From assembly GCA_000004985.1 (NCBI GenBank), contig GG738854.1: a stretch of DNA of 64,000 nt; one strand, given 5' to 3'. Shown here one piece after another: positions 33,928 to 56,531 of the stretch (its first letter is position 1; each line of letters begins with the position of its first letter). The DNA is from Naegleria gruberi (taxonomy: Eukaryota). The position numbers and the translations under genes were made by a program. A model generated the notes under the pieces. The model saw only the letters and a list, made by a program, of their open reading frames with translations. It was not told where the DNA came from and did no database searches.

Positions 33928-34924
33928 TTATTGTTCTCTCTTTCTTAATTCTTCTTCATCCTCAGTTTCTTCACTAATCAATTTTTGAATATCAAATGTG
34001 TACTCAGCAGAACCACTTCCGAATCCCTTAACTAACATGTTCTTTTCAATGTATTTATCAAAAGTTTCAGAAATTTCCTTATCGTTACCCTTGAGCATGA
34101 CGTACTTTTCAACAGTTTCCTTGGCCAAGAATGGCTTGACGAAAGCCCAGATCATTGAAATAGTCCAACCAGCATTGAGAACCATAGTACGAGCCAATCT
34201 TTCAGTGTAATAATTACCCAATTGCACGAATCTAAATTCAATAATTGTAAATTACATTCAATAATAATACTAAATACATACGTATCCTTCATTTCCTTGA
34301 CCAAACCCATTGAGAGTGATGAGTCCTTCAAGTCAACCAACCAAACAATATTGTTAACACCTTCTGGCATTCTCTTGATGCACTTTTCCATCATGTAGAC
34401 GAAGAGTTTGAACTTCATCTTCTTATTTTCTTCAGTATTGTCAGCAGTGTCCTTACCCAAGAGACAGTAGATAATTGGACGACCAGACTATTTTTCATCA
34501 TCATCAAATTAAAATCCATAAAGTAAAAAGCTATTTCTACTATTACAACTACTATTATACTAACCTTATCATAACCATAATGGTAGAGGAATCCTTGCTT
34601 GGCAATTGGTTCAAGATCCTTCAATCTAATATCTTGTGGACGGAATGAAGCTCTCCAATCCATAGTTTCCTTCAATTGCTTGGAGGCAACTTCCATATTC
34701 CATTGCAAACCAGAAAGATAACGGAAGAGACACATGTCATCAAGGAAGGCCTTTTGTTCTTCATCCAAATTCCAAGTTTCACTAATCTTACGAAGGTCTT
34801 CCATGAGCTTCTTTTGTTCATCAGTGAGTTTAGAGAGTGGTGAAACAACAGAAGATCTAACTTCTTCAGCTAATTTACCATAGGTTTCATCTCTTCCGGA
34901 AGGTAAGAAACTGTCTCTGACCAT
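33928..34924 (-). CDS. Sec14-like / CRAL-TRIO lipid-transfer protein, 289 aa. Three exons: 34924..34565, 34487..34282, 34231..33928. Introns are 77 nt (GTTAAGT...AATAG) and 50 nt (GTATGT...TTTAG)
   Basis: Exon 1: CRAL_TRIO_N (DEQKKLMEDLRKISETWNLDEEQKAFLDDMCLFRYLSGLQWNMEVA) ...GFLYHYGYDK. Exon 2: SGRPIIYCLLGK...FKLFVYMMEKCIKRMPEGVNNIVWLVDLKDSSLSMGLVKEMKD. Exon 3: TFVQLGNYYTERLARTMVLNAGWTISMIWAFVKPFLAKETVEKYVMLKG... This matches the Sec14 YYPERLGK...NAPW...KPFLD signature. Phases are consistent (0, 2). Confidence 0.75.
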
Positions 34925-36205
34925 TTTGATTTCTACATGAATATAATCAATATTTAAATTATTATATAACAATATATTTTCATCAAATCACATAAATTAT
35001 ACAACAAAATCAAAAACGGATAATTATTATGATGAGTAAATCATATTGATTTAAATGATCCAAAAATCACACAAGTTATAATCACCACCATTGATGCAAA
35101 TCACCATCATCAACACGTCAATCAACAATATGGAATAACAATAATTAGCCTTTGGAAAATTCCATCACACAAAAAACATACAAGTTGAGGAGAAGGTTTA
35201 AGAATTTGAGTTTTTTTTAAAAATCTAATTTGTGTGCTGGATGATGAAAGTAGATATTGCTGATGAACCAAAGGGCAGAATGCAAATAAAAGGTGAGAAT
35301 CATCATCCTAACGGTAATGTTCTTGATGAGTTTGGTGGAGGTATGGATTATTATCTTGTTTCCAAAGCGATAACTGTCATTAATATGAAATATTGTTACT
35401 TGGTGAATAAATATGTAGAAATAGTCGGCTTTGATGACCGTTACGCACTATTCCCGCTCATTAAATTTATTAATTTAAAAAAAAGTCTTTAAAGATTCTT
35501 GAATTACCTCTTGATAATCGGGTTCTTGTATCAAATCAATTGAATAATAATAATTTTATGTAGATTAAACTATTGTGCTGAACTCGAAAAGATTGTAAGC
35601 ATCAATGCATATATCTTTTGAGTTTGGAATTTCTTGCTTGTACAGAATGCCAAGCAGTGTCGATGGTTAGATTGGAAATTAGAAACAACAAAGGCAACAA
35701 CATGGATTGTCTTTTAAGTGTCGCATGTTTAATAGTAGATCCACTGTGCGCTTACTGAAAGTTGTTGTTAGTAAGATCCTCAAAGGGATGATAAACTCCA
35801 CTCACGAATGTTGCCTCTTAATTTCCAAAAGGCCCAATTCATTTCGAAAAGGAAACAACCTGTAGAGGCTTTTAACTTGTAGTACCAAGTTCAGTGAGCC
35901 AATGAAGAAAGAAACAAAGCAAGGACCTCTTTCAGTCAATAGTTTATCTTTGGATCACAATTTAATGTTGTCTTTCATTGAATACTGTTGTGATATGTTA
36001 ATGTTTGTTTGTATTTAACACATGAATGGCTAGATTAATTTATTTCGTGCATACAACTGATGTCTAAAACATTTTTGTTTGGAGTTGTCATGGCATCTAA
36101 CTCTTGATTGTGAAATACCCCATAATTGTAAGGTTTAATTCTCATTCGGACAACCCAAAATTCGAGGGACCAAAACACAATTCAAACGAAAACAAAAACA
36201 ACAAA

Positions 36206-39200
36206 ATGGTGCACCAAACTGAGTCGTCACCACTTTCCCATGGTGTTGAATCAGAAAGCTGCCGAAAGTCATCTGCGCATCACGGATTAACAACAAGAAC
36301 TCTTCCTCTCATAACGATCCTTCTATTCATTGGATATTGTTGGGTTTTTGTATCATCTTTAACTTTTTTATGGAATCACTCAACTACTAGTAATTACACA
36401 CGCAATTCGCCCAGTTTCGTCTTCATTGAAGCTGCTAATATTTGTTACACAATTTCAAGTACTGATCCAACCGTTTGCTCTGGTAATGGCACATGTATTG
36501 CTTTGAATACTTGTCAATGTTATCCAGGCTATTCAGGTAAGTTTACTTTCGAATTAACGTTGTGATAATCATTTCGTAGGAAATAAATGTACAACACTAA
36601 TAACATGTAATAACCTTGGAGTTAATGATACACAGGTTTGTTCGGGGCACGGTGTTTGTATCGCCAAAAACAATTGTACATGTACAGATGGATATTCAGG
36701 AGCTAGATGTCAAACCGCCATGCAATGTTATGGAATTGACTTTACCAACACGACCTATGTCTGTAACGGTAATGGTAATTGCACTGCTGCCAACAACTGC
36801 ACCTGTAAAGATGGATTTTCAGGTACCAGATGTCAAACAATCAGACAATGTAGTAACATTGATTTTAATGATCCAACAGTTTGTTCTGGCAAAGGATCTT
36901 GTGTTTCGAATAATAATTGTGAATGTCTAACTGGTTATACAGGTAGTCAATGCCAAAATGTCATGAAATGTTACACAATCCCATTTAATGATCCAAGCGT
37001 TTGTTCTGGAAAAGGTCAATGCATTGCTTCGAATAATTGTTCATGTATTCAAGGATTTTCTGGGACTAAATGTCAGAATGATGATTCTATATTTACGTGT
37101 TTTGGTTTTAACTCGACTAACCCTTTGGTTTGTTCTGGAAATGGAAATTGTACATCGAATGGAAATTGTACATGTAAAGAGGGATTTTCTGGGACTAAAT
37201 GTCAAAATGATGACAGCTACTTTACTTGTTATGATATTGATCCATCAAATACAACCTATGTCTGTAATGGAAATGGAAATTGCACAGCTCAAAATAATTG
37301 CACTTGTAAGGAAGGATATTCAGGAACCAGATGTCAAAACGCCATGCAATGTTATGGAATTGACTTTACCAACACGACCTATGTCTGTAACGGTAATGGT
37401 AATTGCACAGCTGCCAACAACTGCACCTGTAAAGATGGATTTTCAGGTACCAGATGTCAAACTAACAATAATTTAATTACATGTGGTGGACTACTTCCAA
37501 TTGATCCACAAGTTTGTTCTGGAAATGGAAATTGCACTGCCAAAAATAATTGTGATTGCCTTTATGGATACGTTGGTAATCAATGTGCTGATTTACTTCA
37601 ATGCTTTACAATTAATTACAGTGAAAGTTCTGTTTGTTCTGGAAATGGAATTTGCATTGAAAAAAACAACTGCTCCTGCTTTGATGGATATACAGGAAAC
37701 AAATGTCAGACATCAATTCTTCATACATGTTATGGATTAAATGAAACTGATCCACTGATATGCTCTGGAAATGGACAATGTGTTCAGAACAATAATTGCT
37801 CATGTATTTATGGATATAGTGGAAATCAATGTCAAAAAGTGTTGAAATGTCACACCATTACATTCAATGATCCATTGGTATGTTCTGGAAATGGAAATTG
37901 TTCGTTGGATGGAAATTGTACTTGTAAACAAGGTTTCAGTGGTAACAAGTGTCAAAATGATGATTCAGTTTTCTCATGTTACGGTTTTAATTCGACAGAT
38001 CCATTGGTTTGTTCTGGAAATGGTAATTGTACTGCTGACAATCAGTGCAATTGTACAGATGGCTTTAGTGGAAATAAGTGTCAGAATAATGATAATTTAT
38101 TCACATGTAATGGAATTGATTCGAATAATGCAACTGTTTGTAGTGGAAATGGAATTTGTATTTCACAGAATAATTGTTCTTGTTTTTCTGGATTTTCTGG
38201 AAACAGGTGCCAAAAGGATGACAATTTTTTCACTTGTTTTGGTATTGACCTATCAAATTCCACAGTTTGTAATGGAAATGGTATTTGCGTTTCACAAAAC
38301 AATTGCACCTGCTTTAGTGGCTATTCAGGAAACAAATGTCAAAATAATGACATGATTATCAGATGTTACGGAATTGAGTCTACTGATAGCTCAGTATGTT
38401 CTGGTCGTGGTAATTGCACCTTTGATAATACTTGTAAATGCAAAGATGGATTCAGTGGAAGTCAATGTCAAAATGATGATAATATTCTCAAATGTTATGG
38501 AGTTGAGTTCAACAGTCCATTTGTTTGCTCTGGAAATGGAAATTGTTCTTCATTTGGTAATTGCTCATGTTTTGAGGGATTTTCAGGGAAAAAATGTGAA
38601 TTTGATTTGAATTCCAATGAGACAGCATCATCTAATTATACATGTTATGGTATTAATGGTGGATTATCTACTGTTTGTTCAGGAAATGGAAATTGCATTG
38701 CAGATAATGTTTGCGAATGTTTCTATGGATTTGATGGGTCTCAGTGTCAGAAAACACTTCAATGTTATGGAATTGATTACAATAATCCAAGCGTATGTTC
38801 AGGCAATGGTATTTGTAATTCAAGAAACTCTTGTTCATGTTATGAAAATTACGTTGACACCAAATGTCAAACGTACAGAGATCCAAACGCCACCTCATTC
38901 AAATGTTATGGTGTTCAATCGAATGATTCAAGTGTTTGTTCTGGCAGAGGAAACTGCACAGCAGATAATTTCTGTGAATGTCAAACAGGCTTTAAAGGTT
39001 CCAAATGTCAAAATTTGGTCAACTATTGCTTTGGCATTGATGAATATTCCAACAATGTTTGTTCAGGAAATGGAAAATGCACAAGTCAAGATACATGTGA
39101 ATGCTCTTCCAATTATTTTGGAAACGATTGTGGTGTTTACATTCTTCCAGAAACAAGTACAATCAAGATTCTTTCCAAATATTTGTATTTGATTGATAGT

Positions 39201-42008
39201 GCAACAGAGAATAATGTGATAACAGTTAGATCACAAAGATTGGTTAATAATTATAAGGGAATGGAAAGTAGATTGAAAAGCGTGTTGATTTTGTCAACTG
39301 AGCTAGTCAATTATGAATTTTCCCAAATTGGGCTTTTTGACAAGTTACAATTGTTTTCAAATATGACTGTTGGTGAATATACAGCAAATTTGACGATTGT
39401 AGATACTGGTTACAATATTGTTGTTGGACAATCTATTGTAAAGTCACTATTTAATGTTATGACTCTCCAACAATTGAGTCAACCTGAAATTCTTTCAAAA
39501 TTAACACCTAAGGAAATTAATCAAATTACAAGAGAATTGAAAAGAATATCAAATGACCAACAAGTTGTCTCCAATATAGTTTCGAATTTCAAGGATAATG
39601 TCAATAACTATACTTTGGATGATGGTTTGGATTTGACATCTTCTTTATTAGATTTGTCAATAACTAAATTAGAATCTAAAGAAAAGATAACTATTTCAGA
39701 AACATTAACTTCTTTCACGCAGAATTTAATTGAAAGCTCGTCAAATTTCACTTCAGAACAAGTGACACCTATTGCCATCAATATTGTGTCTGTGGCTTCA
39801 AATATTCTCGACAATTCTGGCGATAATTCAGCTGGTAAATCGCAAATAATTGGAAAGTCAATCGAATCTATTGAAAAAACTATTTCTTTAATTTCAGTTG
39901 TAAACTCGACAGAAAATTTATTGATTACAACTTCAAAGATTATGGTTTTGCTAATTTCCAAGGCAGAATATAAGAATTCACACGTGATCGATAAGGATTA
40001 TTCTTTATCTCTTCCAGAACTCGATTTTGGATTTTCGTTTGGTTTAGTCAAGTATGAAAATTATTTGACAGATGACTTACAGAATACTACAGCTATTTCA
40101 GATATTCTACAAGTGAGACCATTATCAAATGGAGTATTCACACCACTCCGTAATCTTTTAACTCCATTCAACTTGACCTTCTCTATTAAGAAATACGAAA
40201 CCCCAAATAATGAAACAATCGCAACTGTTGTTTGTAAATATTGGAATGAAACAAGAAGTGAATGGTTGAAGGACGGCTGTGTAACTACAATATTATCAGA
40301 AACTCAAGTAATGTGTTCTTGCTATCACACAACCAAGTTTTCTTCATTTGTAGATTATTCGAATATTGACTTTACAACAAGAACAGCTCAATCTTCACTT
40401 GCAGTTGCTAATATTATATTTAGTTCTATATTCATTGTAATCATTATTGTAATTCTCATTCTATTAGTGGTGTTTAGAAAATCTCAACCTGTCAAATCAA
40501 GACACGTGACTCCTTACCTTGCATTGACATCCTTACTCATTGAAAACTTAGTTTCTGGAATAATTTCTAAAGGACTTTTACTTGACAAGTACAATTTCAA
40601 TATAACCATCATGACAAGCGTCTGTGCAGTCATTTCTACTGCTTTATTGACAAGCGCAGTTTGGTGTTATTTCGTCATGTCTGTTCGATTCATTATTCAT
40701 AGATATTTCTATGAATACATGATGAGAATAGTAGAAAATAGACAGCAGAAGAATAATCTATTAATCAAGATTTTGAATATTTTCAAGCAAGATAAGGTTT
40801 TGATCTTGTCAAGTGTCATGCTTGCTGTTGGATTTATTTTATATTTTGCTATTTTTGTAATTTTGAGAGGAGTTTCTGTATTTTCTGATTCACAATTTAC
40901 CTATTCAACTACTATTTCATTATTTATTTTTTTACTTTCAATGACAGCAATGATTTTTGGCATTTATATTTTAGATTTTTATTTGGATTGCACTAACAAG
41001 CAATTAAGAGATGAATTGGTTGATATTTCAGATGAAATAATGTTAGTAGAAAGTGGAGACTCCCACCTAAGCAATTTGAATTCCAGAAAATCACTCAAGA
41101 TTACAAAACCATTTATTGAGCTATTGGAACAATCTCAAGTGAAAAAGATTGTGAGCTTGTTTTATTCGAATGACAAGCTCATGTTTAGACCAGAGGCAGT
41201 TTTCTTCATGACTGGTATGCTCTTCTTTACAGTTTCGTACTGTTTAGGATTTGCAAGCGTCAATGATCGTTACTTAATCAACCCTTCAGCTGCCATAACT
41301 CAACATGTTGATGTGTTAGATGCCATATCATTCCTCTTTGACATTCTCATGACTATTTGTTTTATCATTAGTTTCGGTGGTTTCTCCGTTTGTTGGGCCA
41401 TTGTAATTGAATCCAGAAAGAAGAATTGTTTCGTTGAATCTAAACAAGTTGTTATTAAGGAACGAATTAAGTCTCAAAGATTGGAAAATCTTGCAGATAT
41501 GACCGACAAGTTTGATATTTACAAACTCATGAAAAACAAGTATTTGCTTAGATTATTCCGTCAATATTCGAAACTGGAAATGTCATTAGAAAATTATGTA
41601 ATTTGGATGAGAATTGAACATGCCAAGTCTAAATTTGCTAAATTATGGATAGAAATGGAAGGAGAACCAGAATCGATTGAGGAATGGAATTTATTGTTAC
41701 AAGAATTGGAGGAATGGTTGACAGAGCATATTTCATCAGAAGCTGAGCTATCTCTCAATGTCAGTGCTCGTTCAAAGAAGCAGTTTGTGACAGCAGTGAG
41801 AGTATTGGAAACTAAGGTTGCAAGTATTCCATCAAAGAATAGAGATTCTTTATTGAATTTGAAACAAACTGTCAGAGATGCTATTGAATCATTGACCACT
41901 GATGTTTTATATAATTTGATGGACACTTATTCAAGATTTATCATTACTAATGAATACAAAGCCATGAAGGAAGTAGAAGCAGTTACAGAAATGACAACTT
42001 TCAAATAA
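36206..42008 (+). CDS. adhesion-GPCR-like receptor (about 1919 aa): signal/anchor, about 35 tandem Dictyostelium/tenascin-type EGF repeats, spacer, GPS-like motif, seven TM helices, cytoplasmic tail. Two exons: 36206..36536 and 36580..42008, with a 43-nt intron (GTAAGT...CGTAG)
   Basis: ATG at 36206 (MVHQTESS...), followed by hydrophobic LPLITILLFIGYCWVFV. EGF unit C-x(8-12)-C-[SN]-G-x-G-x-C-x(4-5)-C-x-C-x-x-G-[FY]-x-G-x-x-C repeated about 35 times. GPS-like CKYWNETRSEWLKDGCVTTILSETQVMCSCYHTTKFSSF. Seven hydrophobic helices between about 40380 and 41400. Exon 1 ends ...CYPGYSG in phase 1 and joins to KCTTLITCNNLGVNDTQVCSGHGVC... Confidence 0.75.
36705..36838. repeat. intragenic near-identical duplication (about 134 bp, 2 mismatches) of one EGF-repeat unit; second copy at 37329..37462
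   Basis: AGATGTCAAA[C/A]CGCCATGCAATGTTATGGAATTGACTTTACCAACACGACCTATGTCTGTAACGGTAATGGTAATTGCAC[T/A]GCTGCCAACAACTGCACCTGTAAAGATGGATTTTCAGGTACCAGATGTCAAAC occurs twice, about 620 bp apart. It encodes AMQCYGIDFTNTTYVCNGNGNCTAANNCTCKDGFSGTRCQT in both copies. Confidence 0.85.
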
Positions 42009-42308
42009 CATTTTAAATAGCTGATTGTGAATAGTGATAACTAGTGTTAATATTTTATTGAATGAAAATTTCTGGTAGATTTAGTTTACAGTAACCATTG
42101 TATTACACAGATATTTACAGTTCATTGTAATTTAGGATATCCTCTTTAAATGTTTCGAATAGCTTTAATAATGACAGATGTTTTCCATCAACACAATTTT
42201 TTGTTTTTCGTAGAACACATTTATACACCAACTCGTCAAGTCACTCATTTCGAATTAGGAATTCATCATTTCCATCAGCACAACAGAAACTTAAAAACAC
42301 AAAAAAAA

Positions 42309-44342
42309 ATGCAAGATTCCATTAGCACCAGTAGCTCTGGCAGTAGTAGTAGACAATTCATCAATCCAAGCTTGTTTAAACCATACTCCGCTACACCTTC
42401 TTCTGAGCAAGGTCAACAAGACGAAACAATTTACATTTCGGATAAACCATTTCCACTATTCGAATTCGATGCTACCAAAGAGAAATGGCAGATGAATCAA
42501 GATGCCTTTGCTAAATTAGAAACTGTGAGTGGTTCTGGCTTTGTGAAAGTAATTTCTGTGGTTGGTGCCTATCGTTTAGGTAAAAGTTATTTGATGAATC
42601 AGATAATGAATGGTAAGAAAGGAGGTTTCGAATTGGGACACACCACAGAGAGTATGACTAAAGGTGTATGGGCCTGGGGTGAGGTTGTTCATGATCCACA
42701 AGTTGGCACTCATATTCTTCTCTGTTTGGATTCTGAAGGTCTTTTAGATGTCGATAGAGAGGACGAAACTTTTGACATGTCACTTTTCTGCATATTGACA
42801 ATGTTGTCAAGTTATATGATTATCAATTTGGAAAAGAGAATAAGTAGCGATGATCTTAACAAGTTGGCTTTTGCATCTGATTTTACAAATATGATTGTCA
42901 CTGATCAACAAGATGACAAGGATTACAATCATGAAGATATTCAATATTATACTCCACAATTATTATGGCTAGTAAGAGATTTTACATTGAAATTGAAAGG
43001 AACAGAGCAAGAATACTTGAATGAGATATTAAATGAAGAGGATAAAAAGAAAAAGTCAAATGTCTCTCTAATTAAGAAGAATATTAAGAAGTATTTTGGT
43101 GACAAGATGGAGCTCAAGACTTTACCATGTCCAAGCAGTGATGAAGATGTATTGACAACCATTGAAGAGAGTGGTGATCAATTATCTGAGAAATTTGTTA
43201 ATGGAATGAAATCTTTGGTCAACCACATTAGAACAACAGCTTCCCTTAAAAAGATACTTTCTCCAAAGAGTAATCGTGAAATGTATCTCGACACAATGGG
43301 ATTTTACTATTATTGTAGAAAATTAGTGGAACAATTGAATGAAAATGCCAAACAAATTCAAATTCCAAACACATTCGAATCAGTCTTGACACAACAACTT
43401 GAATCTATTCTAAACGAAACGTTGGAGAATTATGATAAGAAGATTCAAAGCTTTATTGCTAAATTCCCAATTGAGGAAGATTCCCTCTTGGATATTCATA
43501 GTGAAGTTTCCAATTTTTATATGCAGAAAGCTCTCAATAGAGTTCCACATTTCAAGAGAGAAGAATTCCATGAAACTTTGTTGATTTCCCTTGGAGAAGT
43601 TTCGTTTAAGGATAATCCAGAAGAAGTTCAATTGAATTCTAGTTCCAAACTATACAATCTTCTTGAGAGAAACAGGGACGAATCTGAAAGATATTGTGAA
43701 CAAATCTATATTAAGGAAATTAATTCTGTCAAGTCAAAGATGTACTCTGTTGTTGAACAATGCAGAAGTGATTTGGAATTTGTTAGAGCTAATCTTCTTC
43801 AACAATTGATGGGTCCAGCTGCCAACAAGTACATGACTAAATTCTTCAGTGAATCCCAAGAAATAATGAAACAAACTATTCTCTGTCAAAAGATTGATCA
43901 AGCAGAGAAGGAAAAGGAGGTTTTAAAGGAGGAGATTTATAATATGAAAGAACAAAGAAAGCAACTGGTTGAGCTCATTCAAAAAGAACGAACACAAACA
44001 AACTCTGCCATGCAACAATTGCAGAGTCAACAACAAGCTCTCGAACAGCAAATTCAATTAGAAAAACAATCAGCCTCAAGTCAGATCAGTAACTTGAAAA
44101 ATCAATTGGAAAATATACCAAAGGCCACACCAACAGTCATTTACCAAACTGTTTCAGAGCCAAGCAAAAGTACTTGTAGTAGTAGTAGAAGTAGTAGATA
44201 TTACTCTAGCTCAGATGATGATGATTATTATTCAAGAGGTAGTAGAAGAAGCAGTGGTGGTAGAAGTGGAAAAACATTTTACAAAGGTGGCCAGTTTATT
44301 CCAGGTGGTGGAAGAGCTCCAAAAGGAGGCGTTTGGATGTAA
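42309..44342 (+). CDS. guanylate-binding-protein (GBP)-like large GTPase of the dynamin superfamily, with C-terminal coiled-coil and Ser/Arg/Gly-rich tail (about 677 aa from ATG 42309)
   Basis: GBP-type G-domain VISVVGAYRLGKSYLMNQIMNGKKGGFELGHTTESMTKGVWAWGE...ILLCLDSEGLLD...LSSYMIINL. Helical/coiled-coil region (QQLQSQQQALEQQIQLEKQ). Tail SSRSSRYYSSSDDDDYYSRGSRRSSGGRSGK. The track ORF starts further upstream (42150) at a non-ATG codon. Confidence 0.7.
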   Translation: MQDSISTSSSGSSSRQFINPSLFKPYSATPSSEQGQQDETIYISDKPFPLFEFDATKEKWQMNQDAFAKLETVSGSGFVKVISVVGAYRLGKSYLMNQIMNGKKGGFELGHTTESMTKGVWAWGEVVHDPQVGTHILLCLDSEGLLDVDREDETFDMSLFCILTMLSSYMIINLEKRISSDDLNKLAFASDFTNMIVTDQQDDKDYNHEDIQYYTPQLLWLVRDFTLKLKGTEQEYLNEILNEEDKKKKSNVSLIKKNIKKYFGDKMELKTLPCPSSDEDVLTTIEESGDQLSEKFVNGMKSLVNHIRTTASLKKILSPKSNREMYLDTMGFYYYCRKLVEQLNENAKQIQIPNTFESVLTQQLESILNETLENYDKKIQSFIAKFPIEEDSLLDIHSEVSNFYMQKALNRVPHFKREEFHETLLISLGEVSFKDNPEEVQLNSSSKLYNLLERNRDESERYCEQIYIKEINSVKSKMYSVVEQCRSDLEFVRANLLQQLMGPAANKYMTKFFSESQEIMKQTILCQKIDQAEKEKEVLKEEIYNMKEQRKQLVELIQKERTQTNSAMQQLQSQQQALEQQIQLEKQSASSQISNLKNQLENIPKATPTVIYQTVSEPSKSTCSSSRSSRYYSSSDDDDYYSRGSRRSSGGRSGKTFYKGGQFIPGGGRAPKGGVWM

Positions 44343-50949: not shown

Positions 50950-53061
50950 TTACAAATCGTCAACTCCATTCACTATAACTGCTTCTTTCTTGTGGAGGTC
51001 ATAGATATGCTTCCACTCTGTGTATTGTTTAGTTCTCCTCAATCTAGAGAATGTATCATAAATGTTCAGAGCAAGCTCTGGTAGTAAAATATTGAGAATA
51101 TCTTGTCTATTGAGAATGTACTCATCTGGTAAATTCTGTTGATCCATTTCAATACAGAATTGAAGATAGGCCTTCCTAGATCTAGCACTTATGTTGACCT
51201 CAAATTTGGCATAACTTTTGATGAAGGTGTGGAATATATCTTTCATTCCAGCAACTGATACCTGTTTAGAATAGTCAGCAATCATTAGTTTTTCAAAAAG
51301 GAGGTAATTTTCATAGGAGCTTTCATTAATAGAGTACTCTTTGAAAAGCTCTCTTACATCCTTATTCGCAACTAAAATCCTTTCAATAGCCGTAATATCT
51401 TTCGATTCTGTACTGTTGTGCTTTGAATTGGAACCTCTTCTCCTTACGAAACCTCTTATTGAATAATAAATCTCAATAATCATTGCATTACCACCATAGA
51501 AGAAGAACATTACGAGCGCAATCGCTATTCTCACTGCCAAATTTACTGAAGTAGCCGATGATGAATTATTTGGTGTAATAATAATGAAAATAACCAGCAA
51601 GATCACAATGGCTAAGAAAACCATGAGGTCAATTCTGATATAAGCTGGATCATCAAAGAGTAAAAACTTTGCCAATCCTCCCTCCTTAATATTCTTCCTA
51701 TTGATTATCATATCAATTGCAATGCACAATAGAGCAAAGAAACATCCAATCAGAGTAATAATGAAAATATACAAGGTGAATGAAATGAATATCTTGTAAG
51801 GATCCAATACAATGATAATTACAATTGGTATCAGCAAAATCACAGCAAATATCACTGAAAATAAGAGAACCAACACAACTCCAACTGTACTCGATGCAAG
51901 TCTCCTCAGCACCTGAGTATATCTTCCATTCAGTTTCCTGATGAGAACATATAAATTTCTCAAATAAATCCATCTCACAATACTGAGAGCATACACCAAA
52001 CACATTATATTGAACACAAACAATGATGCCAATGAGCTAGCAGTCGCACAATTCACTCTAAACGGAGCTGTCCACAAATTGGTATAGAGAAATGCACAAG
52101 CTGGACATAAATACGGAATCAACAATCTTCTCTTCAGTGAAGGTCTCTTAAACATTCCAAATAGAAAGAAAACCACGTAAAATGAAACATAAACAAAGAA
52201 CATGGTATAATTGGAGAAATCTAGTGGAGTAAAATCGGAATAACTCATACATGCACTTGTGGAACAGTCAGAACAGGTTGCATTCCACAGGATCATTTCA
52301 GATTGATGACTTTGTATGAATTCTGAAATATTCCTTTCGTATAATAATACTTGATTGACAATATTCCAATCAGGTGTTAATCGAATAGATCGAATTCTTT
52401 CAATTTTAGAAATATCCTCTGTTGAGAAATTCAGAAAATTTCTTCCTCTATCCAAAACTATCATGTCATGTAAATTCGAAACTTTACAATCATTCGAATA
52501 TAAAATCAAATTCGTCCTCGTATCCACCTCCTTCTTTAAAATTGAAACTTTCTGATCTAATCCCCCAGAATCAACAATTAACTGCGAAGGAAATATTGGA
52601 AACATTACAAAATCCGAAATTTCATAACCCTCCTTTCGAATACTTTTCTTGGGCGAAATATAACGATTCCTTCTCACTGCAAATGTAAAAACACTAGAAG
52701 GTGCCAAAATTCCATCATAATTATCAAAGAAATGTCCAATAAAACAATCCGAATAGAAATAATCAACTTGTACAAGTGACATTTTGAAACTGGACGAAAC
52801 TTCATTCCAAATCTGAGAACAAGGTTGCGAATTTTGACAAGCTATTCGAAGGTTTGTGTGATTTGCAATTCTATCATTTAGAATAAACAAGGAGAATGTA
52901 TCAAATGCTCCAATAATTTTAGAATTATTTAAAAGATTCGAATAGAATATTGTACTGTTTTCTTGGCCGAAAGTAAAATATTTCATCAACACAGTGATTG
53001 TGATAATCGTCAGAAATGCGTCAAATTTGATGGGCCTAGTCGGTATTAGTATTAGATTCAT
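50950..53061 (-). CDS. 7TM-RGS protein: signal peptide, about 290-aa Cys/N-glyco-rich ectodomain, seven TM helices, C-terminal RGS domain (about 703 aa from ATG 53061)
   Basis: Seven hydrophobic helices (MFFVYVSFYVVFFLFGMF ... AVRIAIALVMFFFYGGNAMIIEIY). C-terminal RGS box ...DVRELFKEYSINESSYENYLLFEKLMIADY...IFHTFIKSYAKFEVNISARSRKAY..., which matches the RGS consensus (F-x-x-F-L-x-x-E-F-S-x-E-N-L-x-F-W ... E-V-N-[IL]-D-x-x-T-R). The track start at 53094 is TTG; the first ATG is at 53061 (MNLILIPT...). Confidence 0.65.
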   Translation of the reverse strand: MNLILIPTRPIKFDAFLTIITITVLMKYFTFGQENSTIFYSNLLNNSKIIGAFDTFSLFILNDRIANHTNLRIACQNSQPCSQIWNEVSSSFKMSLVQVDYFYSDCFIGHFFDNYDGILAPSSVFTFAVRRNRYISPKKSIRKEGYEISDFVMFPIFPSQLIVDSGGLDQKVSILKKEVDTRTNLILYSNDCKVSNLHDMIVLDRGRNFLNFSTEDISKIERIRSIRLTPDWNIVNQVLLYERNISEFIQSHQSEMILWNATCSDCSTSACMSYSDFTPLDFSNYTMFFVYVSFYVVFFLFGMFKRPSLKRRLLIPYLCPACAFLYTNLWTAPFRVNCATASSLASLFVFNIMCLVYALSIVRWIYLRNLYVLIRKLNGRYTQVLRRLASSTVGVVLVLLFSVIFAVILLIPIVIIIVLDPYKIFISFTLYIFIITLIGCFFALLCIAIDMIINRKNIKEGGLAKFLLFDDPAYIRIDLMVFLAIVILLVIFIIITPNNSSSATSVNLAVRIAIALVMFFFYGGNAMIIEIYYSIRGFVRRRGSNSKHNSTESKDITAIERILVANKDVRELFKEYSINESSYENYLLFEKLMIADYSKQVSVAGMKDIFHTFIKSYAKFEVNISARSRKAYLQFCIEMDQQNLPDEYILNRQDILNILLPELALNIYDTFSRLRRTKQYTEWKHIYDLHKKEAVIVNGVDDL

Positions 53062-53801
53062 TTTTTTTTTCTGTTGAAATCTGTCAGTGCTCAAGATTAG
53101 TGAAATCTCCTTTTGACATTTTGACGACAGGATAGTAAAAGGAAGCGAATTAACGATTGTGCTTTTTCAAGAAAGAATCTGGATAAGCAAGTTAGTCTGT
53201 AATAGAGAACATGTTTACAATACATATTCATTATTCGAAACTTGTTGTAAACTAAATATGTTTTTCTCAAACACAAATGTAACATTAAGGTTTCTAAACA
53301 AGATCACAAAGGAAATTCGAAGGCTAAATTCCCCTGTCTTTCGAATAAAAATATGCGGTTTGGTTGACCACTTCACATTTAGTAATTTTTCTGAGCTACA
53401 TATTTGGAAATTTTATTGCATATTCGAAATATTGGTTCGGCTTTTCAATTTTTAAAAAAACTTCTTTTGAAAAAAACTGTCGCAAACTTGCAACTGAAAT
53501 TCGTCCAGTTTCGAATTGGACTTTTTTTACACATTTTGAAAACAAACTAATCTTAGTTTGTAGAACTTATTCGCATTTAGAAACTAGTTCCAGAAGTTGA
53601 TAAAAAGAAGTCAACCACATCGTATCTGTGATATTCGAAACCTGTCAATTCAATTAGCAATACAAAAAAAAAATCTAATTAGTCCACCATCAACGACAAT
53701 TGACACTTCATCATCTGGATAACCCAACATACTAATATTATTACTTTATACAAATTTTGTTACTACTCCATCCAAGTTTCGAATAACGTTTTTCAAAAAG
53801 A

Positions 53802-56531
53802 ATGGGTTTCTTCTCCAATTTATTTCATCATCACAATAAGAATGATCCTAAACACCAATCCGTTTCCGTTTCTTCCACTGCTCCTTCACTAACCTCTCCA
53901 CACACAATAGACGAAACCTCCCATGCCGACCAAGCTCTCGATCAATCCTTTCGTTCAACTGTCAGTTCAACTCACATCAATTCCAATACCTCATCCAGTC
54001 GTTTATCCATCGACTCAATGGCTTCCTCCTTCTCCAATGCCACACAATACAACTCAACTCATAAACATTCAATGAGTAATCCATTTCATTTCCTTCACAC
54101 TCACACTTCACATCATAATCCACAGAGAATGAGTGTTCGTGATTTTGCTCGACAATATTTGGAAGTTTTGGAGAGTGAAAAGAGGAGAGAATTGTTGAAG
54201 AGTGTTTCAATGATACAGACAAACTATTCGAATGGTGGTTGTGTGAGTGCGAATCAGTCGTTGCATGCAATTGTTGGTGGTGCTGCTGCTGCTACAGTAG
54301 TGGGTGATAATGTGAATTCGAATAATGAGAATTTGGTGAGTGAGGAGGCAACTGTTTCGAATGGAATTGCAGAGGTGAATACAGAGTCAACGACACTGGT
54401 GACAGCTGTTGATAATTCAAACACTTCCAATGAGGATGTTGCAGTTAGTAATGAAAATAATCGTCTCAGTATTGAAAATTCACAACTTATCAGAAATATC
54501 AAGAAACAACATGTAAATAATGAGGAGAAACAAACTTTTAAAAAGTTTATTATTGAAAATGAAAAGTATATTCAAACACTCGATGAAATTTATCAAGTTT
54601 GCATTTATGGACAAGTTGAAAGATTGAAGGAACTTGTCTCTGCACATAGTGAAAAATCCGGAAGAAAATTTTCACTCACAATGGCAAGTTTGAGAATGAC
54701 TGGTTCTGTAATTGATATGAGTGGTGATGCAGAACATAAGAATGTAAAGAAACAATCGTGGAGTCATTGTACTCTGGTTCACTTGGCTGCACGTTTCAAT
54801 CAGGTCGATGTTTTAGACATGCTCTTGAAAGAATTTACCAATGAAGATAATCTTTCAGATGTGCTGAATTGTGAGGATGATATTCATGCAACTCCATTGT
54901 TCCATGCTGTGACTGCTGGAGCCATTGAGGCAACTACATTTTTATGCAGTTTCACTCAACAAATCAAAATTAATGTAAAGGACATGTTTGAATGCAGTCC
55001 ACTTTGGTATGCTCTCAATAGAAAAGACTTTGAAATGGCCAATATTTTATTGACATTTGGTGCTGACATGTTCTTTAAAATTCATGGTGGAGAATCCTAT
55101 CTCCATAGAGCTTGTGACAATAATGATATTGCCATGGTTAAGTATATTCTTCTAGGTATTGGAGTGGACGATGAGATTGATTTGACCAATCAAAAGACTT
55201 TACAAATATTCGAGGAGAGACAGAACTTATTTTTGAGAAGTGATCAAAGACATCAAACACCTCTCTTCAATTCTATCAAATCCTATCAGGATAATATGAA
55301 GAAACGTAAATCTGATACTCTTCCATCTCCAAATGAAGCTCCAAATCCACAAAAGGAACAAGTGATGGACTTTTTATTAAGCTTTTTCAATGAACATGCC
55401 CCAGTGTTATTGCAGAAAGCTTTAGATCAAACGAATCACTATGGACACAATGTATTCCACTTCTGCGCTGAGCAAGATGCATTCCAGCAATTGCTCAAAT
55501 TAATCAAATATTTTGAAACTGATGAAAAGCTCAAGTTTGCCCTAAATCTCAAAGACAAAATTCTAGGTAACACCCCACTCCATATTTCTATAATGACAAG
55601 TCATTATGATATTTTTAAACTATTTATTAATTGTAGTGAAGTTGAGTTGAATATTCCAAACCAACAACTAGATTTACCACTCCATGTAGCCCTAAGACAA
55701 CACAAGTTGAGAATGTGTCAATATCTCTATATTCACTATAGTCAACAAGATTTAGAAGTTAAGAATGCTCAAAGATACTCCTCACTGAAATTGGCCAAGA
55801 GATTGGACATTAACATGAAAAAGCTTGCAGAGGGTTCAACAGAAGAATTTGAAAAGAAGAAGATCGTCAAGAACACTTCTGAAAAGAAATGGTGGCACAT
55901 TTTCAAGATTCACAAGCAAAACAATCAACAAGATTCCAGAAAGAGCATGGTTGAAAAGGGCCATACAACACCTCTCGAAGAAATTTCTCAAAATGAAAGC
56001 GAGTTCACCTCATCAACTGATGCCTCTTCCTCTGATTTATCGGCTCAAAGAACAACCTTCCCTCTGGTTATTTGGACTAAGGAGCTGACATTGGGAGTTG
56101 ATATTATTGACACTCAACACCATGCCCTTGTTGACATTATCAACAAGTTGATCAAATTATTGTTTGGAGAAGATAATGCTTTTATTCCTGACAGATCAGC
56201 AGATGAATGGATTCTGGGTTATATAATTGGCAATCTACTCGAATACACTGAATTCCATTTTGAAACCGAGGAGAAAATTATGTCCAAATATCAGAAAATA
56301 CTTCCAGATGGTTATTTAGATGAACATCATCAAGAACATGTCGAATTCACATCGAAAATTCACAAATTGCATCAAGAATACCTTGAAAGTCACTCCACTC
56401 TATCCTTCCTCAATGTGGATTTGTTGAATTATTTACTGAACTGGCTAGTTACTCACATCATGGGAAGTGATCATATTTTGGTTTCTCATCTTAACAAGGG
56501 TATGAAGGAGGGCCAAAAAATCGAATTGTAA
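53802..56531 (+). CDS. ankyrin-repeat protein with C-terminal hemerythrin-like (HHE cation-binding) domain (909 aa); N-terminal Ser/Thr/His-rich low-complexity region
   Basis: ANK repeats (…TLVHLAARFNQVDVLDMLL…, …TPLFHAVTAGAIEATTFLC…, …SPLWYALNRKDFEMANILLTFGAD…, …YLHRACDNNDIAMVKYIL…, …TPLHISIMTSHYDIFKLFI…). C-terminal FPLVIWTKELTLGVDIIDTQHHALVDIINKL ... ILGYIIGNLLEYTEFHFETEEKIMSKYQ ... YLDEHHQEHVEFTSKIHKL. This matches the bacteriohemerythrin pattern W-x-x-x-[LF]-x-[VL]-G-x-x-x-[IL]-D-x-[EQ]-H-x-x-L ... Y-x-x-x-H-F-x-x-E-E ... H-x-x-E-H. Confidence 0.65.
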   Translation: MGFFSNLFHHHNKNDPKHQSVSVSSTAPSLTSPHTIDETSHADQALDQSFRSTVSSTHINSNTSSSRLSIDSMASSFSNATQYNSTHKHSMSNPFHFLHTHTSHHNPQRMSVRDFARQYLEVLESEKRRELLKSVSMIQTNYSNGGCVSANQSLHAIVGGAAAATVVGDNVNSNNENLVSEEATVSNGIAEVNTESTTLVTAVDNSNTSNEDVAVSNENNRLSIENSQLIRNIKKQHVNNEEKQTFKKFIIENEKYIQTLDEIYQVCIYGQVERLKELVSAHSEKSGRKFSLTMASLRMTGSVIDMSGDAEHKNVKKQSWSHCTLVHLAARFNQVDVLDMLLKEFTNEDNLSDVLNCEDDIHATPLFHAVTAGAIEATTFLCSFTQQIKINVKDMFECSPLWYALNRKDFEMANILLTFGADMFFKIHGGESYLHRACDNNDIAMVKYILLGIGVDDEIDLTNQKTLQIFEERQNLFLRSDQRHQTPLFNSIKSYQDNMKKRKSDTLPSPNEAPNPQKEQVMDFLLSFFNEHAPVLLQKALDQTNHYGHNVFHFCAEQDAFQQLLKLIKYFETDEKLKFALNLKDKILGNTPLHISIMTSHYDIFKLFINCSEVELNIPNQQLDLPLHVALRQHKLRMCQYLYIHYSQQDLEVKNAQRYSSLKLAKRLDINMKKLAEGSTEEFEKKKIVKNTSEKKWWHIFKIHKQNNQQDSRKSMVEKGHTTPLEEISQNESEFTSSTDASSSDLSAQRTTFPLVIWTKELTLGVDIIDTQHHALVDIINKLIKLLFGEDNAFIPDRSADEWILGYIIGNLLEYTEFHFETEEKIMSKYQKILPDGYLDEHHQEHVEFTSKIHKLHQEYLESHSTLSFLNVDLLNYLLNWLVTHIMGSDHILVSHLNKGMKEGQKIEL

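What the first reader, a model, noticed from the sequence alone, without database searches (positions are those of the whole stretch)
36206..42008. Giant EGF-repeat adhesion-GPCR-like receptor with GPS motif; evidence for ongoing repeat homogenisation
About 35 tandem six-cysteine EGF repeats are followed by a GPS-like Cys/Trp box (C..W.......W...GC.........C.C.H.T.F) immediately before 7 TM helices. This is the hallmark layout of adhesion (class B2) GPCRs with autoproteolytic GAIN/GPS domains. Two repeat units 620 bp apart are 132/134 nt identical while neighbouring repeats are much more diverged. That pattern indicates very recent unequal crossing-over or gene conversion inside the gene. Such loci tend to be copy-number polymorphic between isolates.
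Basis: partly seen in the sequence, partly recalled or inferred. Interest (0 to 1): 0.55.

Follow-up and report, generated by a model that had tools for sequence, protein, structure and literature searches.

The report
Naegleria EGF–GAIN–7TM–RGS surface receptor
This is a Naegleria gruberi gene for a large surface protein with an adhesion-GPCR-like ectodomain (EGF repeats plus a self-cleaving-type GAIN domain), joined to an unrelated seven-helix membrane domain and a G-protein-inactivating RGS domain; this kind of protein was already described in the sister species N. fowleri.

Summary
One + strand gene (36206-42008, with one 43-nt intron) encodes 1919 aa. It has 21 EGF units, not about 35. 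A genuine GPS motif follows (Pfam 37.1 bits) inside a GAIN-fold domain (Foldseek E 7e-10 to BAI3). Then come seven TM helices. The 132/134-nt identity between EGF units 3 and 8 (offset 624 nt) is exact as described, against 63.5±5% for other unit pairs.

The 7TM domain shows no 7tm_2 or class B similarity by Pfam, profile or fold. It belongs to a small family of 99 representatives among 1.84 billion proteins; the ten sampled were Naegleria, Willaertia or unnamed metagenome proteins.

The protein is therefore a 7TM-RGS receptor-type GAP with a GAIN/EGF ectodomain. Bosch et al. (2022) reported 28 such proteins in N. fowleri. The ORF from 36720 is identical to N. gruberi XP_002680244.1 ("predicted protein"), whose public model lacks the first exon.

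The repeat identity fits one short gene-conversion tract. No copy-number variation was seen in the one family member that could be compared between isolates. Interest is low to moderate.

The parts
36206..36536 (+). Exon 1: start codon, N-terminal hydrophobic signal or anchor (aa 34-56, window 36305-36373) and most of EGF unit 1. It is absent from the public gene model XP_002680244.1, which starts at 36720.
   Evidence: splice restores the frame and the GYSG|NKC consensus. (43% identity over 138 aa to the annotated N-terminus of paralog P0001, E 1e-33). (the public model is the 1762-aa ORF).
36537..36579 (+). 43-nt intron, GTAAGT...TAG, containing in-frame stops
36580..42008 (+). Exon 2, running to the stop codon. 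The complete protein is 1919 aa.
   Evidence: The ORF 36720-42005 is identical to N. gruberi XP_002680244.1 / D2V6T6.
36443..39131 (+). Array of 21 six-cysteine EGF units (aa 80-961) of teneurin/tenascin type, with periods of 120-150 nt. Of the 51 N-glycosylation sequons, 49 lie in the ectodomain.
   Evidence: regex, 21 units. (EGF_2 1.8e-72, EGF_Teneurin 2.4e-64). (repeat families). (sequons).
36705..36838 (+). Copy A of the near-identical tract, covering EGF unit 3. It is the probable recipient of the gene conversion.
   Evidence: 132/134 nt. (99% versus a 63.5±5% background). Units 2/7 and 4/9 on either side are only 63-69% identical.
37329..37462 (+). Copy B of the near-identical tract, covering EGF unit 8. 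It is the probable donor: its neighbour, unit 7, is the next closest relative (78-79% nt) and shares the 36-aa variant length.
39186..39455 (+). Predicted beta-sandwich (FN3/Ig-like) domain between the EGF array and GAIN, aa about 980-1069
   Evidence: strands, pLDDT about 60-70. (weak cytokine-receptor FN3 matches, prob 0.93-0.99, E 0.2-0.5). No Pfam hit.
39507..40364 (+). GAIN domain: helical subdomain A (aa about 1087-1218) and beta-sandwich subdomain B (aa about 1224-1372)
   Evidence: the top 11 Foldseek PDB hits are all adhesion-GPCR GAIN domains (BAI3 7e-10, BAI2, CD97, GPR126, CELSR1, LPHN3/1, GPR110, GPR56); the profile matches ADGRG2/L3/F1 through GAIN (E 1e-4 to 1e-3). (secondary structure, pLDDT about 70-87).
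40233..40340 (+). GPS motif, aa 1329-1364. The predicted autoproteolytic bond is T1361|T1362 (between 40331 and 40332), with His1360 as the base. The Stachel-like strand TKFSSFVDY follows at 40332-40364.
   Evidence: PF01825 37.1 bits. (across 82 family members: -1 T 79/82, +1 T 82/82, +6 F 80/82, +7 I/L/V 75/82; H and +3 F were fixed by the search pattern).
40389..41429 (+). Seven-helix membrane domain (aa 1381-1727) with a 70-aa third intracellular loop. It has a GPCR fold but belongs to a small separate family and is not 7tm_2.
41475..42002 (+). Cytoplasmic C-terminal RGS domain (aa about 1743-1918). Its Gα-contact motifs are conserved: S-L-E-N, L-N-V-S and D-T-Y-S-R-F.
   Evidence: PF00615 24.9 bits, cutoff 23.9. 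(RGS5 E 1.7e-4, with the E-N and Asn aligned). (RGS3 alignment of SLEN/SEEN and DTYSRF/DSYPRF). (RGS8 TMt 0.81, prob 1.0).

Best explanation
The gene encodes a type of receptor-GAP: a plasma-membrane 7TM-RGS protein with an adhesion-receptor-style ectodomain.

Layout (shown): an N-terminal hydrophobic signal or anchor; 21 glycosylated EGF units and a beta-sandwich domain; a GAIN domain whose GPS motif (His1360-Thr1361|Thr1362) sits about 18 residues before TM1; a GPCR-fold 7TM domain of a small separate family whose named members are heterolobosean; and a cytoplasmic RGS domain.

Proposed mechanism (inferred):
- The GAIN domain self-cleaves in the ER. The ectodomain stays attached non-covalently through the buried strand TKFSSFV.
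- The RGS domain accelerates GTP hydrolysis on Naegleria Gα subunits, several of which are self-activating in N. fowleri. This keeps them switched off.
- Contact of the EGF ectodomain with a surface, prey or another cell, or shedding of that ectodomain, changes the 7TM conformation or the protein's localisation. That alters the RGS domain's access to Gα, as proposed for plant AtRGS1.

The 132/134-nt identity of EGF units 3 and 8 is a single recent intragenic gene-conversion tract of about 134-190 nt, probably from unit 8 to unit 3.
For: Shown here:
- Gene model and domain order.
- GPS at 37.1 bits.
- GAIN fold: the top 11 PDB hits are all adhesion-GPCR GAIN domains, best E 7e-10. Sequence-profile hits to ADGRG2/L3/F1 support this.
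- RGS domain above the Pfam cutoff with conserved E-N, Asn and D-x-Y-x-R-F motifs.
- Topology puts GAIN outside and RGS inside: 49 of 51 sequons are extracellular and the cytoplasmic loops are K/R-rich.
- Family-wide coupling: of 99 proteins sharing this 7TM domain, 91 carry the RGS domain and 82 carry CxCxH[T/A]TxF five residues before the 7TM profile. Positions -1 T, +1 T, +6 F and +7 I/L/V are nearly invariant.
- The ten members looked up are from N. gruberi, N. fowleri, N. lovaniensis, Willaertia magna or unnamed metagenome contigs.

From the literature:
- N. fowleri has 28 7TM-RGS proteins. Several carry GPS motifs, EGF repeats and lectin domains.
- The RGS domains of three of them act as GAPs on Nf Gα2/3/5/7 and bind the transition-state form (PMC9283941).

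Gene conversion:
- Only one unit pair stands out, 99% versus 63.5±5%, and the flanking units are not similar.
- Paralog P0001 shows stronger homogenisation: its units 4-9 are 89-94% identical in protein.
Against: - No experiment exists on this protein. Cleavage, GAP activity, surface localisation and ligand are all inferred.
- The residue before the scissile bond is Thr, not the Leu usual in animal GPS sites. Cleavage competence is therefore unproven.
- The RGS Pfam score is only just above its cutoff (24.9 versus 23.9).
- This protein is not one of the four N. fowleri proteins that were tested. It is from a different species, and the published primers are absent from the window.
- The GAIN/RGS structure model rests on a 5-sequence alignment (mean pLDDT 61.6).
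- Read-level data to exclude an assembly error in the repeat were not available.
Confidence: 0.7

Rival explanations
1. It is a true adhesion (class B2) GPCR. GAIN autoproteolysis exposes a tethered agonist that activates the 7TM domain as a GEF for heterotrimeric G proteins. The RGS domain would be only a built-in terminator.
For: - GAIN/GPS directly before TM1.
- The Stachel-like strand T-x-F-x-x-F-[ILV] has hydrophobic residues at +3, +6 and +7, as in the animal TxFAVLM, and is nearly invariant in the family.
- The 7TM domain has a genuine GPCR fold.
- In N. fowleri some Gα subunits exchange nucleotide slowly and would need a GEF (PMC9283941).
Against: - No 7tm_2 or class B similarity in sequence or fold.
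- 91 of 99 proteins with this 7TM domain carry an RGS domain, so the conserved output is GAP.
- The conserved Stachel positions are also core residues of the GAIN beta-sandwich. Their conservation does not by itself show agonist function.
Confidence: 0.15
2. It is mainly an adhesion or structural surface protein. The GAIN domain would be an uncleaved stalk and the RGS-like domain a non-catalytic scaffold.
For: - Very large glycosylated EGF array.
- Thr at position -1 is atypical for cleaved GPS sites.
- The RGS Pfam score is marginal.
- Some RGS domains are known to have lost GAP activity (statement in PMC3971589).
Against: - The Gα-contact residues (E-N, Asn, D-x-Y-x-R-F) are invariant among the aligned paralogs.
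- His(-2) and Thr(+1) are present in all 82 family members that have the motif.
- Related N. fowleri RGS domains are active GAPs (PMC9283941).
Confidence: 0.1
3. The 134-nt near-identity is an assembly or consensus artefact rather than biology.
For: Repeat arrays are prone to misassembly. No read data could be examined here.
Against: - The two copies differ at 2 positions and sit in unique, diverged flanks that keep the reading frame and the EGF register.
- The 624-nt spacing is short. From my own knowledge, the N. gruberi genome was Sanger-sequenced and single reads could span it.
- A collapse would delete units rather than create a distant twin.
- The paralog shows even stronger unit homogenisation, so the process is real in this family.
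Confidence: 0.05

Closest known systems
Naegleria fowleri 7TM RGS proteins (Nf 7TM RGS1-4 and 24 others; Bosch et al., J Biol Chem 2022, PMC9283941)
   Same: Same genus-level family. The architecture matches: EGF repeats or other ectodomains, a GPS motif, seven TM helices and a C-terminal RGS domain. N. fowleri proteins fall in the same 7TM family.
   Different: - This is an N. gruberi member that was not studied there.
- That paper reported GPS 'motifs' in a domain cartoon.
- Shown here in addition: the full GAIN fold, the distinctness of the 7TM family, the near-invariant HT|T site and a corrected gene start.
Animal/holozoan adhesion GPCRs (class B2; e.g. latrophilin, BAI, CD97, GPR56, CELSR)
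   Same: - Large modular ectodomain with EGF repeats.
- GAIN domain with GPS immediately before TM1.
- Stachel-like hydrophobic strand after the predicted cleavage site.
- GPCR-fold 7TM domain.
   Different: - The 7TM domain is not 7tm_2 by any test.
- The GPS -1 residue is Thr, not Leu.
- There is no HormR domain.
- It carries a C-terminal RGS (GAP) domain, which aGPCRs lack.
- The predicted output is Gα inactivation rather than activation.
Arabidopsis AtRGS1 and Trichomonas 7TM-RGS proteins (receptor GAPs for self-activating Gα)
   Same: Seven TM helices plus a cytoplasmic C-terminal RGS domain. The same logic is proposed: an extracellular cue modulates GAP action on Gα (as summarised in PMC9283941 and PMC3971589).
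   Different: As far as I know, AtRGS1 has a short N-terminus with no GAIN, GPS or EGF. Whether the 7TM domains are related could not be tested: there is no PDB structure and the AlphaFold library was unavailable.
Polycystin-1 (PKD1) family
   Same: A GAIN/GPS domain placed directly before the first TM helix of a membrane domain that is not an aGPCR. This shows that GAIN is a portable module.
   Different: From my own knowledge, PC1 has 11 TM helices, a PLAT domain and a TRP-like channel region. None of these is present here: no Pfam hit and seven TM helices.

Membership tests
Adhesion GPCR (class B2) | GAIN domain with GPS motif immediately N-terminal to TM1 | tested here: met
   Pfam GPS 37.1 bits against a cutoff of 22.5. 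The top 11 Foldseek hits are aGPCR GAIN domains, best E 7e-10. Profile hits to ADGRG2/L3/F1. The GPS ends about 18 aa before TM1.
Adhesion GPCR (class B2) | 7TM domain of the secretin/adhesion type (Pfam 7tm_2, PF00002) | tested here: not met
   - No Pfam hit on the 7TM region at E<=10.
- A 26-sequence 7TM profile finds no PDB sequence.
- An exhaustive HMM search returns only 99 relatives, nearly all with this family's own RGS and GPS features; the ten looked up were heterolobosean or unnamed metagenome proteins.
Adhesion GPCR (class B2) | GPS catalytic residues: His at -2 and Thr/Ser/Cys nucleophile at +1 | tested here: met
   H1360 and T1362 are present. Position -1 is Thr instead of Leu. 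The pattern is HTT in 79 of 82 family members and HAT in 3.
Adhesion GPCR (class B2) | Autoproteolysis into NTF and CTF, and G-protein activation by the tethered agonist | not testable with these tools
   Needs immunoblots of the tagged protein with H1360A and T1362A mutants, and GTPγS or second-messenger assays.
7TM-RGS receptor GAPs (AtRGS1-like class; Naegleria 7TM RGS family) | Seven transmembrane helices | tested here: met
7TM-RGS receptor GAPs (AtRGS1-like class; Naegleria 7TM RGS family) | Cytoplasmic C-terminal RGS domain | tested here: met
   PF00615 24.9 bits against a cutoff of 23.9 when scanned alone. RGS5 E 1.7e-4 with the family profile. Foldseek RGS8 prob 1.0, TMt 0.81.
7TM-RGS receptor GAPs (AtRGS1-like class; Naegleria 7TM RGS family) | Gα-contact/GAP residues (RGS4 E87-N88, N128 and D163...R167 equivalents; RGS4 numbering from my own knowledge) | tested here: met
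   SLEN aligns with SEEN, LNVS with VNID and DTYSRF with DSYPRF. These positions are invariant in the 5-paralog alignment.
7TM-RGS receptor GAPs (AtRGS1-like class; Naegleria 7TM RGS family) | Measured GAP activity on a cognate Gα | not testable with these tools
   Shown only for the RGS domains of three N. fowleri relatives (PMC9283941).
Naegleria/Willaertia GAIN-7TM-RGS family (7TM-domain family) | Full-length match to the family 7TM profile, with GPS upstream and RGS downstream | tested here: met
   Paralogs P0001, P0002 and P0004 match at E 1e-161 to 4e-175. 91 of 99 members carry RGS and 82 of 99 carry the GPS end. Named members among the ten looked up are from N. gruberi, N. fowleri, N. 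lovaniensis and Willaertia magna.
Polycystin-1 family | GAIN followed by 11 TM helices with a PLAT domain and a TRP-like channel region | tested here: not met
   Seven TM helices. No PLAT or PKD-channel Pfam hit.

The most novel reading that the evidence does not exclude
The heterolobosean family would be a GAIN-7TM module that arose, or was retained, outside Holozoa. A Stachel-type tethered strand (T-x-F-x-x-F-[ILV], nearly invariant) would gate a GPCR-fold 7TM domain whose hard-wired output is an RGS GAP: adhesion-GPCR activation logic coupled to the opposite enzymatic sign. This would qualify the recent conclusion that the GAIN-7TM linkage originated in stem holozoans (PMC12716839). It would also give a tractable model for how 7TM-RGS proteins are regulated.
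Probability: 0.25. Interest if true: 0.65.

Novelty: new member of a known kind. Interest (0 to 1): 0.3.

Why it matters
This is not a class B2 GPCR but a 7TM-RGS receptor-type GAP that borrows the adhesion-GPCR ectodomain (EGF repeats plus GAIN/GPS).
- It suggests a fix to a public gene model. XP_002680244.1 lacks the exon that encodes the signal or anchor and the first two EGF units.
- A GAIN domain fused directly to a non-class-B 7TM domain in Heterolobosea bears on the evolutionary account of the GAIN-7TM module. A 2025 survey placed that module's origin in stem holozoans.
- The family is expanded in the pathogen N. fowleri, where G-protein signalling has been proposed as a drug target (PMC9283941).
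- The repeat conversion is an ordinary feature of tandem-repeat genes.

Tried and rejected
- Full-length Pfam scan: GPS was missed and RGS fell below cutoff. Both were recovered by scanning subregions.
- Second and third word-index homolog searches with alignments gave 2 and 0 hits. The candidate lists were probably swamped by low-complexity TM and loop words. The exhaustive representative search was used instead.
- Published primers for Nf 7TM RGS1-4, Nf RGS-RhoGEF and NfGγ1 were searched in the window and are absent. The window later proved to be N. gruberi.
- The AlphaFold-database fold search, intended to test similarity to the AtRGS1-type 7TM domain, was unavailable.
- Polycystin-1-like reading was rejected: seven TM helices and no PLAT domain.
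- A block (5-unit) tandem duplication as the origin of the 624-nt offset was rejected, because the flanking unit pairs 2/7 and 4/9 are only 63-69% identical.
- Copy-number polymorphism: only one N. gruberi sequence exists in the collection. A proxy test on an N. fowleri family member found 29 EGF units in all four assemblies.
- A literature search for 'Naegleria' plus 'GAIN domain' returned nothing.

Full report
**Source and gene model**

The window is AT-rich eukaryotic DNA (GC about 0.30-0.36). The ORF 36720-42005 is identical, residue for residue, to Naegleria gruberi XP_002680244.1 / EFC47500.1 / UniProt D2V6T6. That entry is named 'predicted protein NAEGRDRAFT_64551' and lies on a 665-kb contig. 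The window is therefore N. gruberi nuclear DNA, and the gene is already in public databases as an uncharacterised protein.

The public model starts at an internal Met. Reading the DNA shows an ATG at 36206. It is followed by a hydrophobic segment and the start of an EGF unit, which runs into GTAAGT at 36537. A TAG acceptor ends at 36579. Removing these 43 nt joins the two frames and restores the repeat consensus GYSG|NKC, giving a 1919-aa protein with no internal stop. The added N-terminus aligns with the annotated N-terminus of the paralog P0001, including the hydrophobic anchor and 'F(V/I)xAAxxCY' (43% identity, E 1e-33). I therefore take 36206-36536 plus 36580-42008 as the gene. The public model lacks the signal or anchor and the first two EGF units.

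**Checking the observation**

- **EGF units.** A six-cysteine pattern finds 21 EGF units (aa 80-961), not about 35. Pfam finds 19 EGF_2 stretches in the truncated ORF, which agrees.
- **GPS box.** CKYWNETRSEWLKDGCVTTILSETQVMCSCYHTTKF lies at aa 1329-1364.
- **TM helices.** Seven hydrophobic helices follow at aa 1381-1727. The K/R-rich loops are on the predicted cytoplasmic side, and 49 of 51 N-glycosylation sequons lie in the predicted ectodomain.
- **Repeat identity.** The claim is exact: 36705-36838 versus 37329-37462, 132/134 nt, offset 624. Units 3 and 8 are 99% identical in DNA. All other unit pairs average 63.5% (SD 5.2%), so this pair is an outlier of about 7 SD.
- **Flanks.** The flanking pairs (2/7 and 4/9) are ordinary, at 63-69%. 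This rules out a duplication of a 5-unit block and points to a short conversion tract. Unit 7 is the next closest relative of units 3 and 8 (78-79%) and shares their 36-aa length. Unit 8 is therefore the likely donor and unit 3 the recipient.

**What the protein is**

*Pfam.* On the full ORF, Pfam gave only EGF families and a sub-threshold RGS hit. Scanned as subregions, the GPS motif scores 37.1 bits (cutoff 22.5) and the C-terminus scores 24.9 bits on RGS (cutoff 23.9). The 352-aa 7TM region matches no GPCR family (7tm_2 included) even at E<=10; its only two hits were unrelated and far below cutoff.

*Sequence profile against PDB.* A 5-paralog profile of the post-EGF region hits adhesion GPCRs (ADGRG2, G1, L3, G3, F1) through the GAIN/GPS region and TM1, at E 1e-4 to 1e-3. 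It hits RGS5 at E 1.7e-4. No hit extends across the 7TM domain.

*Structure model of aa 963-1919.* The AlphaFold model rests on a 5-sequence alignment and has mean pLDDT 61.6, with the GAIN region at about 70-87. It shows, in order, a beta-sandwich, six helices, a second beta-sandwich ending in the GPS strand, seven long helices and a helical C-terminal domain. In the Foldseek search of PDB, the top 11 hits are all GAIN domains of adhesion GPCRs (BAI3 E 7e-10, BAI2, CD97, GPR126, CELSR1, latrophilin-3 and -1, GPR110, GPR56). RGS8, RGS17 and RGS4 follow. The GAIN domain and the RGS domain are thus each supported by both sequence and fold.

*The 7TM domain.*
- A 7TM-only profile was searched exhaustively against 1.84 billion representative proteins. 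It found only 99 relatives (46 at E<=1e-30), although that library should hold many animal class B receptors.
- Of the 99, 91 carry the family's RGS domain downstream. 82 carry CxCxH[T/A]TxF five residues upstream of the 7TM profile. 48 carry EGF units, up to 35.
- Of ten members looked up, the six with an organism name are from N. gruberi, N. fowleri, N. lovaniensis and Willaertia magna. The other four come from unnamed metagenome assemblies.
- A 26-sequence 7TM profile hits nothing in PDB sequences.

The 7TM domain is therefore a separate small GPCR-fold family, so far named only from heteroloboseans, and not 7tm_2.

*RGS domain.* The motifs that contact Gα in animal RGS proteins are present: SLEN (aligned with SEEN), the Asn in LNVS (aligned with VNID) and DTYSRF (aligned with DSYPRF). 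They are invariant among the five aligned paralogs.

*GPS site.* Aligned to the canonical C-x-C-x-H-L|T-x-F, the scissile bond would be T1361|T1362 with His1360 at -2. Across the 82 family members with the motif, -1 is T in 79, +1 is T in all 82, +6 is F in 80 and +7 is I/L/V in 75. H and +3 F were fixed by my search pattern, so their apparent invariance carries no weight. The strand T-x-F-x-x-F-[ILV] places hydrophobic residues at +3, +6 and +7, as does the animal tethered agonist TxFAVLM (that consensus is quoted in PMC12716839). These are also core positions of the last GAIN strand, so their conservation does not prove agonist function.

**Comparison with what is known**

Bosch et al. (PMC9283941) reported that N. 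fowleri encodes 28 '7TM RGS' proteins. Several have GPS motifs, EGF repeats and lectin domains 'reminiscent of adhesion GPCRs'. Recombinant RGS domains of three of them are GAPs for Nf Gα2/3/5/7, some of which are self-activating.

The present gene is an N. gruberi member of that class. It is not one of the four proteins studied (different species, and the primers are absent). The kind of protein is therefore known.

This analysis adds:
- the full GAIN fold;
- the demonstration that the 7TM domain is its own small family rather than class B;
- the near-invariant HT|T site;
- the corrected gene start.

One point of wider interest concerns a 2025 survey, which concluded that the GAIN-7TM linkage arose in stem holozoans and that the two domains sit in separate genes elsewhere (PMC12716839). 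Here a GAIN domain is fused directly to a GPCR-fold 7TM domain in Heterolobosea, although that 7TM domain is not of the aGPCR type. This is either a convergent assembly or an old module whose 7TM domain has diverged beyond recognition.

**Mechanism**

Shown: the architecture, the topology and the motif conservation.

Inferred:
- GAIN autoproteolysis.
- GAP action of the RGS domain on Naegleria Gα.
- Modulation of that GAP by events at the EGF/GAIN ectodomain, by analogy with AtRGS1 and with aGPCR mechanosensing.

The rival reading is that the 7TM domain is also a GEF driven by the tethered strand. This cannot be excluded, but it is less likely because RGS is the conserved partner of this 7TM domain (91 of 99 proteins).

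**Repeat evolution**

Within this gene the 21 units are mostly old (mean 53% aa identity), and one pair is identical. In paralog P0001 (12 units), units 4-9 are 89-94% identical to each other. Homogenisation or recent duplication clearly operates in the family, but in this gene it amounts to a single event.

The prediction of copy-number polymorphism could not be tested for N. gruberi, because the collection holds only one sequence. In an N. fowleri family member present in four assemblies, all four have 29 EGF units at >=99.8% identity, and the length differences lie only at the annotated start. An assembly artefact is unlikely given the two mismatches, the unique flanks and the preserved frame and register, but reads were not available.

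**Verdict**

The described features are largely real. The gene is an unstudied member of an already described Naegleria 7TM-RGS family. Interest is low to moderate.

Noticed in passing
window 50950-53094 (-): A second 7TM-plus-RGS gene lies about 9 kb downstream on the opposite strand (714-aa ORF). It has a roughly 295-aa N-terminal region, seven hydrophobic segments (aa 297-541) and a C-terminal RGS domain. The family RGS HMM gives E 2.3e-14; Pfam RGS is sub-threshold at 19.2 bits. It has no GPS or GAIN. Its 7TM domain aligns collinearly but weakly with the family profile (KxR..PYL, RY..R.LY, DDP..xR, GG).
   Followed up: partly
window 36206-36722: The public model XP_002680244.1 / D2V6T6 starts at the internal Met at 36720. 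It therefore omits exon 1, the 43-nt intron and the first 157 aa (signal or anchor plus EGF units 1-2). The extension is supported by homology to the N-terminus of paralog P0001.
   Followed up: yes
P0001 (N. gruberi paralog, 1564 aa), EGF units 4-9: The closest paralog (68% identical after the EGF array) has only 12 EGF units. Six of them are 89-94% identical to each other, which is much stronger repeat homogenisation or more recent duplication than in the window gene.
   Followed up: partly
P0028/P0104/P0105/P0106 (N. fowleri family member, four assemblies): All four copies have 29 EGF units and are >=99.8% identical. Their lengths (2504-2720 aa) differ only through different annotated N-terminal starts.
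   Followed up: yes
window 42150-44342 (+): The immediate downstream neighbour is a guanylate-binding-protein (GBP) family large GTPase (Pfam GBP 1.7e-46) with a long coiled-coil, low-complexity tail. There is no evident functional link to the receptor gene.
   Followed up: partly
window 53802-56531 (+): This ORF combines ankyrin repeats with a C-terminal hemerythrin HHE cation-binding domain (Pfam 3.6e-12), an uncommon pairing.
   Followed up: no
window 33928-34972 (-): Three consecutive minus-strand ORFs in different frames together read like one intron-split gene. It was not analysed.
   Followed up: no
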